A stretch of 64,000 nt of DNA from Oscillospiraceae bacterium MB08-C2-2 (GTDB lineage Bacteria > Bacillota > Clostridia > Oscillospirales > Ruminococcaceae), in NCBI GenBank assembly GCA_035621215.1, contig CP141729.1, positions 206,944-270,943 on the forward strand, read 5' to 3'. This document shows, one piece after another, positions 4,725 to 14,678 of the stretch. The first letter of the stretch is position 1. Every line of letters begins with the position of its first letter. The notes under the pieces were generated by a model. It saw nothing but the letters and a program-made list of their open reading frames with translations, was not told the DNA's origin and ran no database searches. The translations under genes were made by a program, and so were the position numbers.

Positions 4725-6044
4725 CTATGCGGCGGGCGAGCCGCTCACAATATCATAGTTCCAGTCCTTGATGCCTCCCAAGTTATATACAGTCTCATAT
4801 CCCATGGATAAAGCTTCTTCCAAGGCGGTTTGAGCACGGACACCGGCGGCGCAGTAAAAGATGATTTCCTGGCTCTTATCGGGCACCAGAGAAGGCAATT
4901 TCTGGGAAATCTCGGCTACCGGAATGTGCAGACTTCCCGGTATATAGCCTTCTGCCCGCTCTTCTGCCGAGCGTACATCCACCAGAACAGCACCGTTTTC
5001 ATAATCATTGAGTGCCTGCTCGGAACCGATAGAGAATTGACGCACAGAGTTTTCATCCAATATTTTGAACTCGAAGTTTTTTCCCACCAATAGAACTTGG
5101 CTGTCTCCCATGGCGATACTGTTCCACTCGGAGCCGTCCGCTTCAGACATTTGGTGGCATACCGTGCATTCCGTGATGGTCAGCAGGCGGCCTCGATCAC
5201 ATACAATAAGCAACTGATCGCCCAAAAGGCCCACAGCGCGCATTTCCAGAGGCAGCTGTTCAGAGAACTCCTCGCCATTCACACTGGTAAGCGCTTTAAA
5301 AAACCAAACGTCGGCCGCATCCGTGAACATAATAAAAGGCTCCCCGGGATTATCCTCCATTTGGCCATAAATAAAGAGGCTGTCACCCAGACTGGAAAGG
5401 CCGGTGAAACTGCGGCGGTCATAATAGCCGTTATATGCCTCGTTGAAATTGATCGCTTTCCAGTTCTCGCCATCGGCAGAGGTGAACAGATCGGTTTTGC
5501 CGGTTATTGCCATCAGGCCATAAGAGTTGGAGGCAATGGCAATAATATCGTTATCGGTTTCCAGCGTTTTGCTCTGCCAGTTCTGCCCGTCCTGCGAGAT
5601 CCACAGGCGGCCCTTTTCGGCGGCTGCATAATACCGGCCATTGAATTCCGTTACTTGAAAAATGGTCCCGCTTTCATCTATATTTGCCTGTTGAAATGTT
5701 TTAAGATCTCGGCTGTAAAGTAAAGTGCCCTTTTCTCCGCAGATCAGGGTAAGCCCATTCTGGGAATGGATATCCAGCAGAGAGGCTTGGGTAGGCAGCG
5801 GAAGGGTTTTGCTCTTGCCATTTTGATCAATTTGATCCAAGCGGCCAGCTGTTCCGGCAGCCAGAAAATAATTTCCCAGATAGACGGACGAAGTATACCC
5901 GGCAGGCTTACCGGTTGAAAGTGTCTGTGCCTGCAAAGGCTGAAGATCAGGTGCAGTGGCAGCTTTAACTGTGCAGGATGGTAATAAAAAGAGAGCAAGT
6001 GTGACTGCTGCTAAATGCAGTATATTTTGCCTCGTTATTTTCAT
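4725..6044 (-). CDS. Lipoprotein with a BNR/Ycf48-like beta-propeller domain fused to a C-terminal rhodanese (sulfurtransferase-like) domain
   Basis: The likely start is MKITRQNILHLAAVTLALFLLPSC with a lipobox, and GGAG lies 7 nt upstream. The C-terminus reads ...VLVDVRSAEERAEGYIPGSLHIPV...IIFYCAAGVRAQ..., a rhodanese fold with a Cys loop. The middle holds W/G-rich repeats typical of beta-propellers. Confidence 0.55.
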   Translation of the reverse strand: MKITRQNILHLAAVTLALFLLPSCTVKAATAPDLQPLQAQTLSTGKPAGYTSSVYLGNYFLAAGTAGRLDQIDQNGKSKTLPLPTQASLLDIHSQNGLTLICGEKGTLLYSRDLKTFQQANIDESGTIFQVTEFNGRYYAAAEKGRLWISQDGQNWQSKTLETDNDIIAIASNSYGLMAITGKTDLFTSADGENWKAINFNEAYNGYYDRRSFTGLSSLGDSLFIYGQMEDNPGEPFIMFTDAADVWFFKALTSVNGEEFSEQLPLEMRAVGLLGDQLLIVCDRGRLLTITECTVCHQMSEADGSEWNSIAMGDSQVLLVGKNFEFKILDENSVRQFSIGSEQALNDYENGAVLVDVRSAEERAEGYIPGSLHIPVAEISQKLPSLVPDKSQEIIFYCAAGVRAQTALEEALSMGYETVYNLGGIKDWNYDIVSGSPAA

Positions 6045-6138
6045 TTTTTCATCTCCAGAGTTGTTAAGCATAGGTGAAAAAGACTTTTAAGGTATTTTAG
6101 ATTAGCTCTGCAAGAGCAATGATTTTCATAGAAACGCA

Positions 6139-6633
6139 TTATTCCTGTTTAGAGGGAATCTGTGCACTTTTGATCAGATGCAAAAGCAGCTGAACCAAGG
6201 CAACCACAGACAATACAATTATGATGATAGGAATTACACCCACCCTGCTAATGAGGAGAGAGAGATAACCCAATAAAGGAATGGCCACAAAAAGCTTGCC
6301 TTTTATATGATTGTAGTTAACTGGGGAGGGGTCCGGCGTGTTGTTGGCATCGCCCTGTGTGATGATGCTGTCTGCTGTGACTTCCAGCGCTCGATGCGTG
6401 ACAACTTCATTGCCGCCCGAAGCATAGAAGGTGATGATATCTCCTACAGCTATATTTTCTTTTTCTACTGGACGAACCACAATTAGAGATCCAACAGGTA
6501 AAGCCGGTTCCATGCTGCCTGTAAGCACTGTGAACTGTTCCCAGCCCAACAGCTGTGGGATGAGTAGTAAAGCTACCAAAAAGAAAGTTACCGATTGAAA
6601 TACAATCGAAAAAATTTGTAAAAATTTTTTCAT
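6139..6633 (-). CDS. sipW: Signal peptidase I of the archaeal/eukaryal type (SipW-like)
   Basis: The 164-aa product has an N-terminal TM segment and then the ...FTVLTGSMEPALPVGSLIVVRP... block that contains the SGSMEP-type catalytic Ser motif of S26B/SipW peptidases. A C-terminal TM segment follows. Confidence 0.75.
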   Translation of the reverse strand: MKKFLQIFSIVFQSVTFFLVALLLIPQLLGWEQFTVLTGSMEPALPVGSLIVVRPVEKENIAVGDIITFYASGGNEVVTHRALEVTADSIITQGDANNTPDPSPVNYNHIKGKLFVAIPLLGYLSLLISRVGVIPIIIIVLSVVALVQLLLHLIKSAQIPSKQE

Positions 6634-6738
6634 AGAGGCGTGGATCCCCTTTCGGATTCGAAATCACATTGTGAGTTGCTTCAATTATCAGAAAATATCA
6701 ATGCAGATGATGAAAGACGAGAATAGAGAAAACTAGTA

Positions 6739-6783
6739 CCAAGGTTGCCGGCGGGTTGCATAAGTTCCCGGCGGCAACCTTGG
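6739..6783 (-). terminator. GC-rich 17-bp-stem hairpin immediately downstream of the xylanase gene; likely an intrinsic terminator separating the xylanase from sipW
   Basis: The arms ccaaggttgccggcggg and cccggcggcaaccttgg pair with one mismatch around the loop ttgcataagtt. On the minus strand the hairpin is followed by a T-containing stretch. Confidence 0.5.
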
Positions 6784-13885: not shown

Positions 13886-13923
13886 GCTTTTCCTCCGTTC
13901 TATTGATCACATTTTTTAAGAAA

Positions 13924-13950
13924 GAACCCCCGCCCGCCGGGCGGGGGTTC
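13924..13950 (-). terminator. Intrinsic terminator-like hairpin downstream of the TasA-like gene
   Basis: gaacccccgcccg-ccgg-gcgggggttc forms a perfect GC-rich stem. It lies between the stop at 13959 and the next gene's start at 13885. Confidence 0.55.
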
Positions 13951-13958
13951 CAAATTCT

Positions 13959-14678
13959 TTAGCGGGCAAACAGTTCGTCCAGGTAGTTTTGCAGGTATTC
14001 ATTCGCGTCGAAGGAAGAACGAGAGAAGGTGGAGATGGAAGAAGCAACAGGAATCATTTCCAGATCATCGTAGCTCACGCTCCAAGCGTTCTGGATAGCA
14101 CCATCCAGAGCCTGAGTGGCAAACCAGCTGTTTTCAAAAGCAATGGAAGAACCCATGTAGGAGTTGCCCATTTTATTGCCATCCAGCAGTGCGACAAAAT
14201 CAACGTCCACTTCAATACTGGGATCTACGATCAGGTAGTAGTTGTCCTGAGCATCTTTCATCCAAATATGTACTTTACCATCGTCATAAATTTTGCTGGA
14301 CAGGGTTTCAGGATCAAAAGCAACAGCAACATTCTTGTCATTCACAAATGTACGGGTCTGGCCATTGGGAAGAAGATTGCCGCTGGCATCACGGATTAAG
14401 GTGGAAGTAGCATTCATGGATACTTTTGCAATAAAGGGAAGAGAACCAGTGTTTTTTACTGCGCCATCCAGATCAACGGAAAGGCCGGGTTCAAAAAGAA
14501 CATCTTCAGTGTCTGCAACAAAGCTGCCCTGAATTGCCAGGTCGCCCAATTCTGCATTGCTGGTTTCCGGTGTGCTGGTAGCTGTGAACCAAGCGTAGGT
14601 GGTGCCACTTGCGATAAGAACCAGAGCGAAAACAATTGCCAAGACCGCCATTCTGCTGTTTTTTACTTTTGCCAACAT
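13959..14678 (-). CDS. TasA/camelysin-like secreted protein with a SipW-cognate class signal peptide; candidate major fibre subunit
   Basis: An AGGAGG RBS precedes the start MLAKVKNSRMAVLAIVFALVLIASGTTYAWFTATSTPETSNAELGDL, which carries the GTxYAxF(S/T) hallmark. The core shows ...FEPGLSVDLDGAVKNTGSLPFIAKV.... The gene is monocistronic with its own terminator. Confidence 0.65.
   Translation of the reverse strand: MLAKVKNSRMAVLAIVFALVLIASGTTYAWFTATSTPETSNAELGDLAIQGSFVADTEDVLFEPGLSVDLDGAVKNTGSLPFIAKVSMNATSTLIRDASGNLLPNGQTRTFVNDKNVAVAFDPETLSSKIYDDGKVHIWMKDAQDNYYLIVDPSIEVDVDFVALLDGNKMGNSYMGSSIAFENSWFATQALDGAIQNAWSVSYDDLEMIPVASSISTFSRSSFDANEYLQNYLDELFAR

What the first reader, a model, noticed from the sequence alone, without database searches (positions are those of the whole stretch)
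4725..14678. Candidate SipW-dependent TasA-fold fibre module with a VWA 'tip adhesin', an anchored TasA-like 'base' and an embedded xylanase
Seen in sequence:
- an archaeal-type signal peptidase with the LTGSMEP motif (sipW, 6139-6633);
- four small secreted paralogs that share a TasA/camelysin-like core block (L-PG..., ...KN(T)G(S/T)L..., ...R/K) and, in two cases, the SipW-cognate N-terminal signature: GTTYAWFTATSTPETSN in the 239-aa protein and SLSWFFIEAATSNITKTGSIDIEL in the 194-aa protein;
- one paralog (8991-9806) that ends in IPNTG plus a TM helix plus KKRF;
- a 920-aa secreted protein with a complete VWA/MIDAS domain and an (SLPDES)n linker;
- a GH10 xylanase with a Big_2 domain, apparently co-transcribed with the anchored paralog.

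Established knowledge: SipW processes TasA (Bacillus) and BsaA (C. perfringens) for fibre assembly, and the known operons are small (sipW plus one or two TasA-like genes). Sortase pili use tip (often VWA), shaft and base subunits.

Inference: this locus looks like an analogous tip/shaft/base architecture built from TasA-fold proteins, possibly decorated with or linked to a xylanase for plant-fibre adhesion. I am not aware of a characterised system with this composition.
Basis: partly seen in the sequence, partly recalled or inferred. Interest (0 to 1): 0.9.

Follow-up and report, generated by a model that had tools for sequence, protein, structure and literature searches.

The report
TasA-like surface fibre locus with xylanase
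This gut Clostridium locus encodes a known kind of surface fibre (SipW-processed, TasA/BsaA-like, with a VWA adhesin and a cell-wall-anchored subunit); its newer feature is that the main fibre protein is always encoded beside a large secreted degradative enzyme ending in a Big_2 domain, here a xylanase.

Summary
On the minus strand of a xylan-utilisation locus of Oscillospiraceae bacterium MB08-C2-2 lie, in order:
- a 239-aa TasA-like protein (A239) followed by a strong terminator;
- a 920-aa VWA protein;
- two small TasA-like paralogs (B194 and C);
- a TasA-like protein ending in IPNTG, a TM helix and a basic tail (D271);
- a GH10-FIVAR-Big_2 xylanase;
- an archaeal-type signal peptidase (SipW);
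- a propeller-rhodanese protein and a GH3.

All four small proteins belong to the TasA/BsaA superfamily, by profile, profile-profile and fold evidence.

The claim of an unprecedented composition is wrong. The C. perfringens bsa operon already combines sipW, TasA-like BsaA/BsaB, the VWA protein BsaC, an LPXTG-bearing BsaB-like protein in most strains, and an adjacent sortase. Tip, minor-subunit and anchor layouts are also described for other TasA-superfamily filaments. Related clostridial loci repeat VWA, SipW, TasA-like, LPXTG-TasA-like and sortase.

What appears new is a subfamily-specific link. In 9 of 9 loci, A239-type proteins sit beside a large secreted enzyme whose chain ends in Big_2 (GH10, GH92, PL11 lyase, S8 protease and others). 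SipW lies in the same cluster wherever the contig reaches. None of 10 control loci shows this. Fibre-mediated enzyme retention is inferred, not shown.

The parts
13959..14678 (-). A239: presumed major fibre subunit. TasA/BsaA-superfamily protein with a SipW-type signal (GTTYAWFT) and a subfamily-specific C-terminal extension that ends in an amphipathic helix (DANEYLQNYLDELFAR).
   Evidence: TIGR04090 at E 3.6e-4 and TIGR04088 at 15.9 bits, both below cut-off. Homolog P0151 (46 % identical) passes PF12389, 25.7 against 22.5 bits. AF2 model pLDDT 79. The only Foldseek PDB hit at E<=1e-3 is TasA fibre 8aur, 7.1e-5.
13924..13950 (-). Intrinsic terminator directly after A239: 12-bp G+C-rich stem followed by TTTCTT. 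Probably a partial stop that sets a high A239 to accessory-protein ratio.
   Evidence: An equivalent hairpin follows the A-like gene in L002.
11123..13885 (-). VWA920: secreted 920-aa protein. Signal peptide, (SLPDES)n linker, helical region, VWA domain with MIDAS and inserted arms, Ig-like domains and a CnaB/SpaA-like C-terminal domain. No sorting signal; ends KFFFGWRWK.
   Evidence: PF00092 at 51.9 bits and PF13519 at 51.6 bits. 18-nt repeats. Residues 302-527 are homologous to the L013 VWA protein, which carries a GBS104-like tip-pilin Ig domain. Residues 705-911 are homologous to the L009 276-aa protein.
10514..11098 (-). B194: small TasA-like paralog with a degenerate SipW-type signal (SLSWFF). 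Candidate minor or adaptor subunit.
   Evidence: hhalign against A7, which excludes B194: 96.1 %, E 3.2e-9. phmmer to the L009 B-like protein 5e-14 and to the L013 and L003 A-like proteins about 3e-5.
9910..10473 (-). C: small TasA-like paralog. The likely start is CTG 10473 behind GGAGG. The annotated 161-aa version from GTG 10395 lacks the signal peptide.
   Evidence: TIGR04090 at E 2.7e-4. phmmer to L013_10792 at 1.1e-9. That L013 protein passes TIGR04090 at 71.8 against 60 bits and PF12389 at 40.7 bits. hhalign against A7: 83.5 %. Hit to the D-family HMM at 4e-5.
8991..9806 (-). D271: TasA-like jelly-roll domain, Gly/Ser/Asp linker, IPNTG, TM helix and basic tail. Candidate cell-wall or membrane-anchored base.
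6795..8936 (-). GH10 endo-xylanase with two FIVAR repeats and a Big_2 domain that forms the very C-terminus (...IRVTA*). No LPXTG or SLH. Probably co-transcribed with VWA920, B194, C and D271.
   Evidence: PF00331 at 113 bits, PF07554, and PF02368 at 53 bits. The catalytic motifs WDVVNE and FTEAD are readable in the translation. 72 % identical ortholog in the same position in L002.
6739..6783 (-). Terminator-like hairpin after GH10: 17-nt arms, 94 % complementary, followed by a T-rich tract.
   Evidence: I8.
6139..6633 (-). SipW: archaeal/ER-type signal peptidase I (S26B) with a C-terminal TM segment. The only one in the locus.
   Evidence: TIGR02228 at 92.3 bits, above the 51.85 cut-off. 56 % identical ortholog after GH10 in L002. 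SipW lies next to A-like genes in L003, L004, L006, L009, L013, L015, L019 and L020.
4725..6071 (-). Rhod448: lipoprotein-like secreted beta-propeller (BNR/DUF6242-like) fused to a rhodanese domain. Conserved after SipW in L002. Role unknown.
   Evidence: PF00581 at 64 bits, with weak Sortilin-Vps10 and DUF6242 hits. 63 % identical ortholog in L002.
1..4548 (-). GH3-type large secreted glycosidase, running off the window start. Its L002 ortholog (1591 aa) ends in a Big_2 domain.
   Evidence: Translation; L002 gene table; Big_2 terminal HMM.
15203..17901 (.). Context: sugar ABC substrate-binding protein (15203-16345, minus strand) and LacI-family regulator (16837-17901, plus strand). These mark the surroundings as a sugar or xylan utilisation locus.
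   Evidence: ORF translations. LacI is 41 % identical to the LacI upstream of the A-like gene in L002.

Best explanation
The locus is a composite SipW-dependent fibre system of the TasA/BsaA superfamily, set inside a xylan-utilisation locus.

Module 1 is conserved. It consists of A239, a Big_2-terminated secreted enzyme (here GH10, with a GH3 downstream) and SipW.

Module 2 is a bsa-like accessory block: VWA920, B194, C and D271. It sits between the A239 terminator and the GH10 ribosome-binding site. It has no SipW or sortase of its own.

Proposed mechanism, all steps inferred:
1. SipW removes the GTTYA|WFT-type signal of A239, and probably those of B194 and C.
2. A239 polymerises outside the cell by N-terminal donor-strand exchange, as TasA and BsaA do. 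This is probably non-covalent.
3. D271 holds the fibre at the envelope through its TM and basic tail. It may be linked to peptidoglycan at IPNTG by a sortase encoded elsewhere.
4. B194 and C act as minor or adaptor subunits.
5. VWA920 is a secreted metal-dependent adhesin that associates with the fibre in an unknown way.
6. Expression is coupled to xylan degradation, and the fibre retains or positions the xylanase through its terminal Big_2 domain.

Shown here: homology, fold, gene order, terminators and cross-genome associations. Not shown: polymerisation, anchoring, adhesion and enzyme tethering.
For: TasA-superfamily membership:
- The A/B/C profile has TasA fibre 8aur (7e-4), TasA 5of1 (1e-3) and AbpX (5e-3) as its top PDB sequence hits.
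- The only Foldseek hit of the A239 model at E<=1e-3 is 8aur.
- Close or linking homologs pass PF12389 and TIGR04090.
- hhalign: D family to A family 96.8 %; B194 96.1 % and C 83.5 % against a profile that excludes them.

SipW: above the curated cut-off.

Anchor:
- 70 of 101 D-family members matched a loose xPx[TSA][GDA] pattern followed by a TM helix and basic tail; most of these are xPxTG-type (LPKTG 10, LPQTG 7) and a few matches are spurious. Several of the remaining 31 carry variants such as LAKTGG.
- A sortase gene directly follows the D-like gene in L013 and L009.
- Single proteins fuse an A-like domain, a D-like domain and LPXTG: P0041, P0093, P0095, P0096 and P0100.

Synteny: L013, L009, L004 and L006.

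Precedent: the C. perfringens bsa operon, with VWA BsaC, an LPXTG BsaB-like protein and a sortase.

Operon structure: terminators after A239 and after GH10, with gaps of 24-103 nt between VWA920, B194, C, D271 and GH10.

Enzyme link:
- All 9 loci that hold an A239-subfamily gene (window/L001, L002, L003, L014, L015/16, L017/18, L019, L020/21, L023) have an adjacent, co-directional enzyme ending in Big_2.
- None of the 10 control TasA-like loci has a protein ending in Big_2.
Against: - A239, B194, C and D271 themselves reach no curated Pfam or NCBIfam threshold.
- No sortase lies in the 64-kb window.
- VWA920 has no TasA-like domain and no sorting signal. In C. perfringens the VWA protein BsaC is released as a free monomer of unknown role.
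- No physical interaction between A239 and Big_2 was tested.
- The enzyme association could reflect co-regulation only.
Confidence: 0.7

Rival explanations
1. Neighbours without physical coupling. The fibre genes and the glycoside hydrolases work independently. They are merely co-located, or co-regulated, so that adhesion or biofilm and polysaccharide degradation are induced together.
For: GH10 has an ordinary Sec signal and no recognisable fibre-binding element. Terminators separate A239, GH10 and SipW into at least three units. C-terminal Big_2 domains are common in clostridial enzymes (own knowledge).
Against: The adjacency holds for enzymes of at least five different catalytic classes that share only the terminal Big_2. 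It holds in Oscillospiraceae, Enterococcaceae and other Bacilli. It is absent from 10 loci with other TasA-like subfamilies. In several loci the three genes are 7-65 nt apart or overlap.
Confidence: 0.3
2. A239-type proteins are not fibre subunits. They are SipW-processed, non-polymerising partner proteins (a tether, chaperone or regulator) of Big_2-terminated enzymes. Only the B194, C, D271 and VWA920 block would then be the bsa-like fibre.
For: The A239 subfamily has a unique C-terminal extension with a conserved amphipathic helix that TasA lacks. The minimal modules consist of only enzyme, SipW and A-like genes.
Against: A239 keeps the family's N-terminal segment after the SipW site. That segment is disordered in the monomer model, as expected for a donor strand. 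A239's best structural match is the TasA fibre subunit. The gene has a strong RBS and its own terminator, as major subunit genes do.
Confidence: 0.12
3. A sortase-assembled (SpaA/CnaB-type) pilus operon with a VWA tip pilin, shaft pilins and a base pilin.
For: D271 has an IPNTG sorting signal. VWA920 has a tip-pilin-like layout, and its L013 relative carries a GBS104-like Ig domain.
Against: The small proteins are TasA-like jelly rolls, not CnaB/SpaA pilins. Only D271 has a sorting signal. No sortase lies in the window. A dedicated SipW is present.
Confidence: 0.02
4. The small proteins are camelysin-type (Peptidase_M73) metalloproteases.
For: Homologs hit Pfam PF12389, 'Camelysin metallo-endopeptidase'.
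Against: The family name probably stems from a misidentification of CalY as a peptidase (PMC11580942). No HExxH motif is readable in the translations.
Confidence: 0.02

Closest known systems
[quoted passage not shown]
   Same: A dedicated SipW, several TasA-like paralogs, a VWA-domain protein, and (in most strains) a TasA-like paralog with an LPXTG signal. The organisms are Clostridia.
   Different: - Here SipW lies at the far end, behind a xylanase.
- No sortase is adjacent.
- The BsaA N-E-K isopeptide triad is unlikely, because no Asn is conserved in the donor segment of the four closest homologs.
- The major subunit belongs to a different subfamily with a C-terminal helix.
- The locus is embedded in glycan-degradation genes.
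- Orthology of VWA920 to BsaC, and of D271 to the LPXTG-bearing BsaB-like protein, was not tested, because no reference sequences were available.
Bacillus subtilis tapA-sipW-tasA and B. cereus sipW-tasA-calY
   Same: SipW-processed TasA-fold subunits that assemble by donor-strand exchange. The signal and core motifs match (xxTWA|AF; PGD...N.G.L; GN.YQG; ATQ).
   Different: There is no TapA. This locus adds VWA, LPXTG-type and enzyme partners. Sequence identity to TasA is under 20 %.
Archaeal and bacterial TasA-superfamily filaments with accessory subunits (Tafi TafA/C/E, PMC11821415 and PMC12337348; AbpX clusters with LPXTG/SLH anchors and sortases, bioRxiv 10.64898/2026.01.04.697558)
   Same: The concept of major subunit plus minor or tip subunit plus envelope anchor, built on the TasA jelly roll. 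LPXTG anchor proteins there are predicted to join the fibre by strand complementation.
   Different: The signal peptidase and export routes differ (Tat, or a 10-TM SPase). No enzyme partner is reported in the passages read.
Sortase-assembled Gram-positive pili with VWA tip adhesins (GBS104, RrgA, SpaC)
   Same: A VWA adhesin with inserted arms and Ig/CnaB-like domains, and a base subunit bearing a sorting signal.
   Different: Shaft subunits here are TasA-like and SipW-dependent, not CnaB pilins polymerised by class C sortase. VWA920 lacks a sorting signal.
Cellulosome-type enzyme display (cohesin-dockerin scaffolds)
   Same: By analogy only: non-anchored polysaccharide-degrading enzymes that share one C-terminal module are encoded with a dedicated surface scaffold.
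   Different: No cohesin or dockerin is present. The shared module is Big_2, and the putative scaffold is a TasA-like polymer. Any interaction is entirely untested.

Membership tests
TasA/BsaA superfamily (PF12389 Peptidase_M73; TIGR04090) | The protein scores above the curated family threshold | tested here: not met
   A239, B194, C and D271 have no Pfam hit at E<=0.1. A239 and C score about 20 bits on TIGR04090 against a cut-off of 60. Close or linking homologs do pass: P0151 on PF12389 at 25.7 against 22.5; L013_10792 on TIGR04090 at 71.8 against 60 and on PF12389 at 40.7.
TasA/BsaA superfamily (PF12389 Peptidase_M73; TIGR04090) | Remote homology to solved TasA by profile methods | tested here: met
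   The A2 profile has 8aur (7e-4), 5of1 (1e-3) and AbpX 9sj2 (5e-3) as top PDB hits. D family to A family by hhalign: 96.8 %. B194 96.1 % and C 83.5 %.
TasA/BsaA superfamily (PF12389 Peptidase_M73; TIGR04090) | TasA-type jelly-roll fold | tested here: met
TasA/BsaA superfamily (PF12389 Peptidase_M73; TIGR04090) | SipW-cognate signal peptide (TIGR04088) and a dedicated SipW gene in the cluster | tested here: inconclusive
   SipW is present. A239 scores 15.9 bits on TIGR04088 against a cut-off of 19, although the GTTYAWFT motif is invariant in its subfamily. The B194 and C signals are degenerate. D271 has an ordinary Sec signal.
TasA/BsaA superfamily (PF12389 Peptidase_M73; TIGR04090) | Polymerisation by N-terminal donor-strand exchange | not testable with these tools
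   The only indirect sign is that residues 24-44 of A239 are disordered in the monomer model. No multimer prediction was available.
bsa-type operon (C. perfringens) | sipW, TasA-like paralogs and a VWA protein in one cluster | tested here: met
   Operon composition is taken from PMC11580942.
bsa-type operon (C. perfringens) | LPXTG-bearing TasA-like paralog with an adjacent sortase | tested here: inconclusive
   D271 has IPNTG, a TM helix and a basic tail, and its family is mostly xPxTG-anchored. No sortase lies in the 64-kb window, although sortases follow the D-like gene in L013 and L009. The rest of the genome could not be searched.
bsa-type operon (C. perfringens) | N-E-K triad for an intermolecular isopeptide lock (BsaA N35/E56/K74) | tested here: not met
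   No Asn is conserved in the post-signal donor segment of A239 and its three closest homologs. P0002, P0003 and P0004 have none there. The alignment to BsaA itself was not possible.
SipW / archaeal-type signal peptidase I (S26B) | Family model above cut-off, and the Ser/His catalytic motifs | tested here: met
   TIGR02228 at 92.3 bits against 51.85. GSMEP (Ser) and THR (His) motifs are present. The protein is not the Bacillus SipW equivalog (NF046067, 74 against 190).
Sortase-assembled SpaA/CnaB pili | CnaB/SpaA-fold shaft pilins with sorting signals, and a class C sortase in the operon | tested here: not met
   The small proteins are TasA-like. Only D271 has a sorting signal. No sortase lies in the window.
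VWA/MIDAS adhesin | VWA domain above threshold with DxSxS...T...D | tested here: met
   PF00092 at 51.9 bits against 23.8. Residues are D311/S313/S315, S379 (Ser in place of Thr) and D416. Metal binding and ligand are untested.
GH10 endo-xylanase | GH10 catalytic domain with both catalytic Glu motifs | tested here: met
   PF00331 at 113 bits. WDVVNE and FTEAD are readable in the translation. Activity is untested.

The most novel reading that the evidence does not exclude
A239-type TasA-like polymers are a dedicated scaffold for extracellular enzymes. Large, otherwise unanchored degradative enzymes (GH10, GH3, GH92, PL11/CE, S8 protease) that all end in a Big_2 domain would be captured on, or would cap, a SipW-processed TasA-like fibre. 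This would be a cohesin/dockerin-independent 'enzyme-on-a-fibre' display system, shared by Oscillospiraceae and Enterococcaceae/Lactobacillales. In this genome it would be further equipped with a VWA adhesin and a wall anchor.
Probability: 0.3. Interest if true: 0.8.

Novelty: new variant of a known kind. Interest (0 to 1): 0.55.

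Why it matters
Most of the locus is another example of the bsa/TasA-type fibre systems now known to be widespread, so by itself it is ordinary.

The conserved three-gene association is the part worth pursuing. A Big_2-terminated enzyme, SipW and an A239-type TasA-like protein occur together across distant Firmicutes and across unrelated enzyme classes.

If the association reflects physical tethering, it would explain how many gut Firmicutes keep large enzymes lacking any wall anchor at the cell surface. It would give the very common terminal Big_2 domain a function. 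It would also extend the role of TasA-like fibres from biofilm matrix to enzyme display. That is relevant to fibre degradation in insect and animal guts and to engineered enzyme scaffolds.

The work also defines a large LPXTG-anchored TasA-like family: 146 representative clusters, matched by no curated Pfam or NCBIfam model in the members scanned.

Tried and rejected
- Direct Pfam and NCBIfam scans of the four small proteins gave nothing above threshold.
- Pairwise BLAST and phmmer among the four was nearly blind.
- Single-sequence phmmer of A239 and D271 against PDB sequences gave nothing useful.
- The 4-sequence A1 profile hit only de novo designed Ig proteins; I treated this as spurious.
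- The word-indexed homolog search found no relative of D271. The exhaustive HMMER search was needed.
- VWA920 against PDB by sequence gave nothing.
- No sortase was found in the window, either by phmmer with the L013 and L009 sortases or by a sorting-signal regex.
The metagenome scan with A1 returned only 3 loci.
- Rfam found no RNA element in the locus.
- The sortase-pilus and camelysin-protease readings were considered and rejected; see the rival explanations.
- A BsaA-type isopeptide lock was considered unlikely, because no Asn is conserved in the donor segment.
- A mirror-tree comparison of A-like and Big_2 divergence was considered and not run, because shared vertical descent would confound it.

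Full report
**Source and layout.** The window is from Oscillospiraceae bacterium MB08-C2-2. A239 is 100 % identical to U6B65_00920 and D271 to U6B65_00900. The strain was isolated from black soldier fly larval faeces (PMC12697180).

All genes of the finding lie on the minus strand. In transcription order they are:
- A239, 13959-14678.
- A 12-bp G+C-rich hairpin followed by TTTCTT, 13924-13950.
- VWA920, 11123-13885.
- B194, 10514-11098.
- C, stop at 9910. The best start is CTG 10473, behind GAGAGGAGG.
- D271, 8991-9806.
- GH10-FIVAR-Big_2, 6795-8936.
- A 17-bp-arm hairpin, 6739-6783.
- SipW, 6139-6633.
- A propeller-rhodanese protein, 4725-6071.
- A GH3-type enzyme that runs off the window start.

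Upstream lie a sugar ABC binding protein and a LacI regulator. Gaps of 24-103 nt without terminators join VWA920, B194, C, D271 and GH10.

**Checking the observation.**
- SipW passes TIGR02228 at 92.3 bits against 51.85, and has the Ser and His motifs.
- VWA920 passes PF00092 and PF13519. Its MIDAS residues are D311/S313/S315, S379 and D416. It contains 11 SLPDES-type units encoded by an 18-nt tandem repeat.
- The xylanase passes PF00331, FIVAR and Big_2.
- D271 ends IPNTG, then a hydrophobic helix, then KKRF.

The four small proteins hit no Pfam family. A239 and C show only sub-threshold TIGR04090 and TIGR04088 scores. They barely see each other by BLAST. Their relatedness therefore needed deeper tests.

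**Are the small proteins TasA-like?**

For A239, B194 and C:
- A genome scan with the A239 family returned 11 loci, almost all with a SipW gene beside A-like genes.
- A 14-sequence profile of A/B/C-like proteins has the TasA fibre (8aur, 7e-4), TasA (5of1, 1e-3) and AbpX (9sj2, 5e-3) as its best PDB sequence hits.
- The same profile retrieves 67 proteins, many carrying PF12389 or named 'spore coat-associated protein N'.
- P0151 is 46 % identical to A239 and passes PF12389.
- L013_10792 links A239 (7e-6), B194 (3e-5) and C (1e-9) by phmmer. It passes TIGR04090 and TIGR04088 and PF12389.
- B194 and C, each compared with an A-family profile that excludes them, give 96.1 % and 83.5 % hhalign probability.
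- The A239 AF2 model (pLDDT 79, pTM 0.71) has a disordered post-signal segment at residues 24-44, a beta-sandwich core and a C-terminal helix at 225-236. Its only Foldseek PDB hit at E<=1e-3 is the TasA fibre subunit.

For D271:
- The word-indexed search found no relatives. An exhaustive HMMER search found 146 representative clusters.
- The family is uniform. It has a Sec signal, a DLF..M.LMPGD...N.S....YL.A block, an LGNEYQN...V.W.F block, a Gly/Ser/Asp/Pro linker, then LPKTG- or LPQTG-like motifs, a TM helix and a basic tail. A loose regex counted 70 of 101 members; a few of those matches are spurious, and several further members carry variants it missed.
- The D family aligns to the A family at 96.8 % hhalign probability, E 2.5e-10, over 126 columns.
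- The D271 model has a confident jelly-roll core with pLDDT about 90.

**Synteny and the bsa-like block.**
- L013 (Syntrophomonadaceae): VWA, SipW, A-like, A/B/C-like, D-like (MPKTG), sortase.
- L009 (Oscillospiraceae): three A-like genes, SipW, a 276-aa homolog of the VWA920 C-terminus, a B-like gene, a D-like gene, sortase.
- L004 and L006: D-like, A-like, SipW, then two A-like genes.
- The L013 VWA protein carries a GBS104-like tip-pilin Ig domain and a SpaA-like domain.
- Five proteins fuse an A-like domain, a D-like domain and LPXTG in one chain. This supports D as the envelope-proximal partner of the fibre subunit.
- No sortase lies in the 64-kb window.

**Comparison with the literature.**
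- The C. perfringens bsa operon is sipW-bsaA-bsaB-bsaC. BsaC is a VWA protein.
- Most C. perfringens strains have an LPXTG-bearing BsaB-like gene, and srtB is adjacent.
- BsaA/TasA relatives are reported to be 'often in putative operons' with LPxTG proteins, signal peptidases and sortases, with several paralogs (PMC11580942; PMC7395162).
- AbpX clusters with LPXTG anchors predicted to join the fibre, and Tafi loci with tip and anchor subunits, are also described.
The tip, shaft and base idea is a known concept and remains unproven here.
- The BsaA N-E-K isopeptide lock is unlikely for A239, because its closest homologs have no Asn in the donor segment.

**The xylanase is not incidental.**
- In L002 the A-like protein is 57 % identical to A239, GH10 72 %, SipW 56 % and the rhodanese protein 63 %. 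The order there is A-like, terminator, GH10-Big_2, SipW, propeller-rhodanese, then a GH3 ending in Big_2.
- L002 lacks the VWA, B, C and D block, and the GH10 ribosome-binding site is conserved.
- The window locus is therefore two modules. The bsa-like block lies between the A239 terminator and GH10, and it borrows the SipW of the other module.

Following every retrievable member of the A239 subfamily gave the same picture:

| Locus | Adjacent enzyme or neighbour |
|---|---|
| L014 | A protein ending in Big_2 upstream, GH43 downstream |
| L023 | A protein ending in Big_2 upstream |
| L003 (Enterococcaceae) | 1828 aa, F5/8C x3, FIVAR, Big_2; then SipW and two A-like genes |
| L015, L016, L019 (Enterococcus lemanii and relatives) | SipW, A-like, then GDSL esterase/RG-lyase ending in Big_2 |
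| L017, L018 | S8 protease ending in Big_2, then A-like |
| L020, L021 | GH92, F5/8C, ending in Big_2; then SipW and A-like |

- All these enzymes stop exactly at the last Big_2 strand (...IRVTx*) and have no wall anchor.
- An HMM of these terminal domains finds a C-terminal Big_2 in 9 of 9 A239-subfamily loci. It finds none in the 10 control loci with other TasA-like subfamilies.
- The subfamily is also marked by a roughly 45-residue C-terminal extension that ends in an amphipathic helix.
- I found no paper in the searchable library describing this association.

**Interpretation.**
- Well supported: a SipW-dependent TasA/BsaA-type surface fibre locus of the bsa kind.
- Moderately supported: D271 acts as the envelope anchor, and B194 and C act as minor subunits.
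- Weakly supported: VWA920 is a fibre 'tip'. It has no TasA domain and no sorting signal, and BsaC is released as a monomer.
- Inferred only: retention or display of the xylanase on the fibre through its Big_2 domain. This is backed by a strong, subfamily-specific genomic association but by no interaction test.
- The main rival is plain co-regulation.

**Verdict.** The locus is a new variant of a known kind.

Noticed in passing
window 9910-10554 (-): Gene C is annotated publicly as 161 aa (P0155, U6B65_00905; GTG 10395), which removes its signal peptide. A CTG at 10473 sits 7 nt behind a strong GAGAGGAGG and restores a signal that aligns with homologs. This is a probable start-codon mis-annotation, or a non-canonical start.
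   Followed up: partly
window 13959-14100 (-); alignments A1 and A6: A239 and its subfamily carry a conserved C-terminal extension (a basic/Ser-rich linker followed by the amphipathic helix D.N.YL..YL..LF.R) that TasA lacks. It is a candidate docking element.
   Followed up: partly
L002, L003, L014, L015-L021, L023: A recurrent three-gene module: a large secreted enzyme ending in Big_2 (GH10, GH3, GH92, PL11/GDSL, S8), SipW, and an A239-type TasA-like protein. It occurs in Oscillospiraceae, Enterococcaceae and other Bacilli. It is absent from 10 loci with other TasA-like subfamilies.
   Followed up: yes
P0041, P0093, P0095, P0096, P0100 (homologs of D271): Single polypeptides fuse an N-terminal SipW-signal TasA-like domain, a D-like domain and an LPXTG anchor. 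This is Rosetta-stone evidence that the two domain types act together.
   Followed up: partly
P0164 and P0173: Some TasA-like N-terminal domains are fused to Beta_helix (PF13229) or CBM_4_9 (PF02018) modules. TasA-like domains therefore also occur covalently joined to carbohydrate-active modules.
   Followed up: no
window 4725-6071 (-): A lipoprotein-like beta-propeller (BNR/DUF6242-like) fused to a rhodanese domain is conserved directly after SipW in L002 as well. No role is apparent.
   Followed up: partly
window 13452-13757: A near-perfect 18-nt tandem repeat, with 11 SLPDES-type units matched in the protein, encodes the VWA920 linker. It is likely to vary in length between strains.
   Followed up: no
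window 18140-19330 (+) and 19492-19565 (-): A mutator/IS256-type transposase ORF and a tRNA gene lie just beyond the LacI regulator, at the edge of the sugar-utilisation locus.
   Followed up: no
window 38295-40937 (-): An 880-aa secreted protein with internally repeated roughly 110-aa segments and a Ser/Gly-rich C-terminus, with no obvious anchor. Possibly another surface protein.
   Followed up: no
window 51089-54112 (+): A 1007-aa membrane sensor protein whose C-terminal half reads like GGDEF and EAL (c-di-GMP turnover) domains. This kind of regulator is often linked to matrix production. It was not scanned against any family library.
   Followed up: no
L013 7182-9449: The VWA protein of the related Syntrophomonadaceae locus has DUF11, a GBS104-like tip-pilin Ig domain and a SpaA-like domain, but no LPXTG. 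It is a sortase-pilus tip-adhesin architecture recruited into a SipW/TasA-like cluster.
   Followed up: partly
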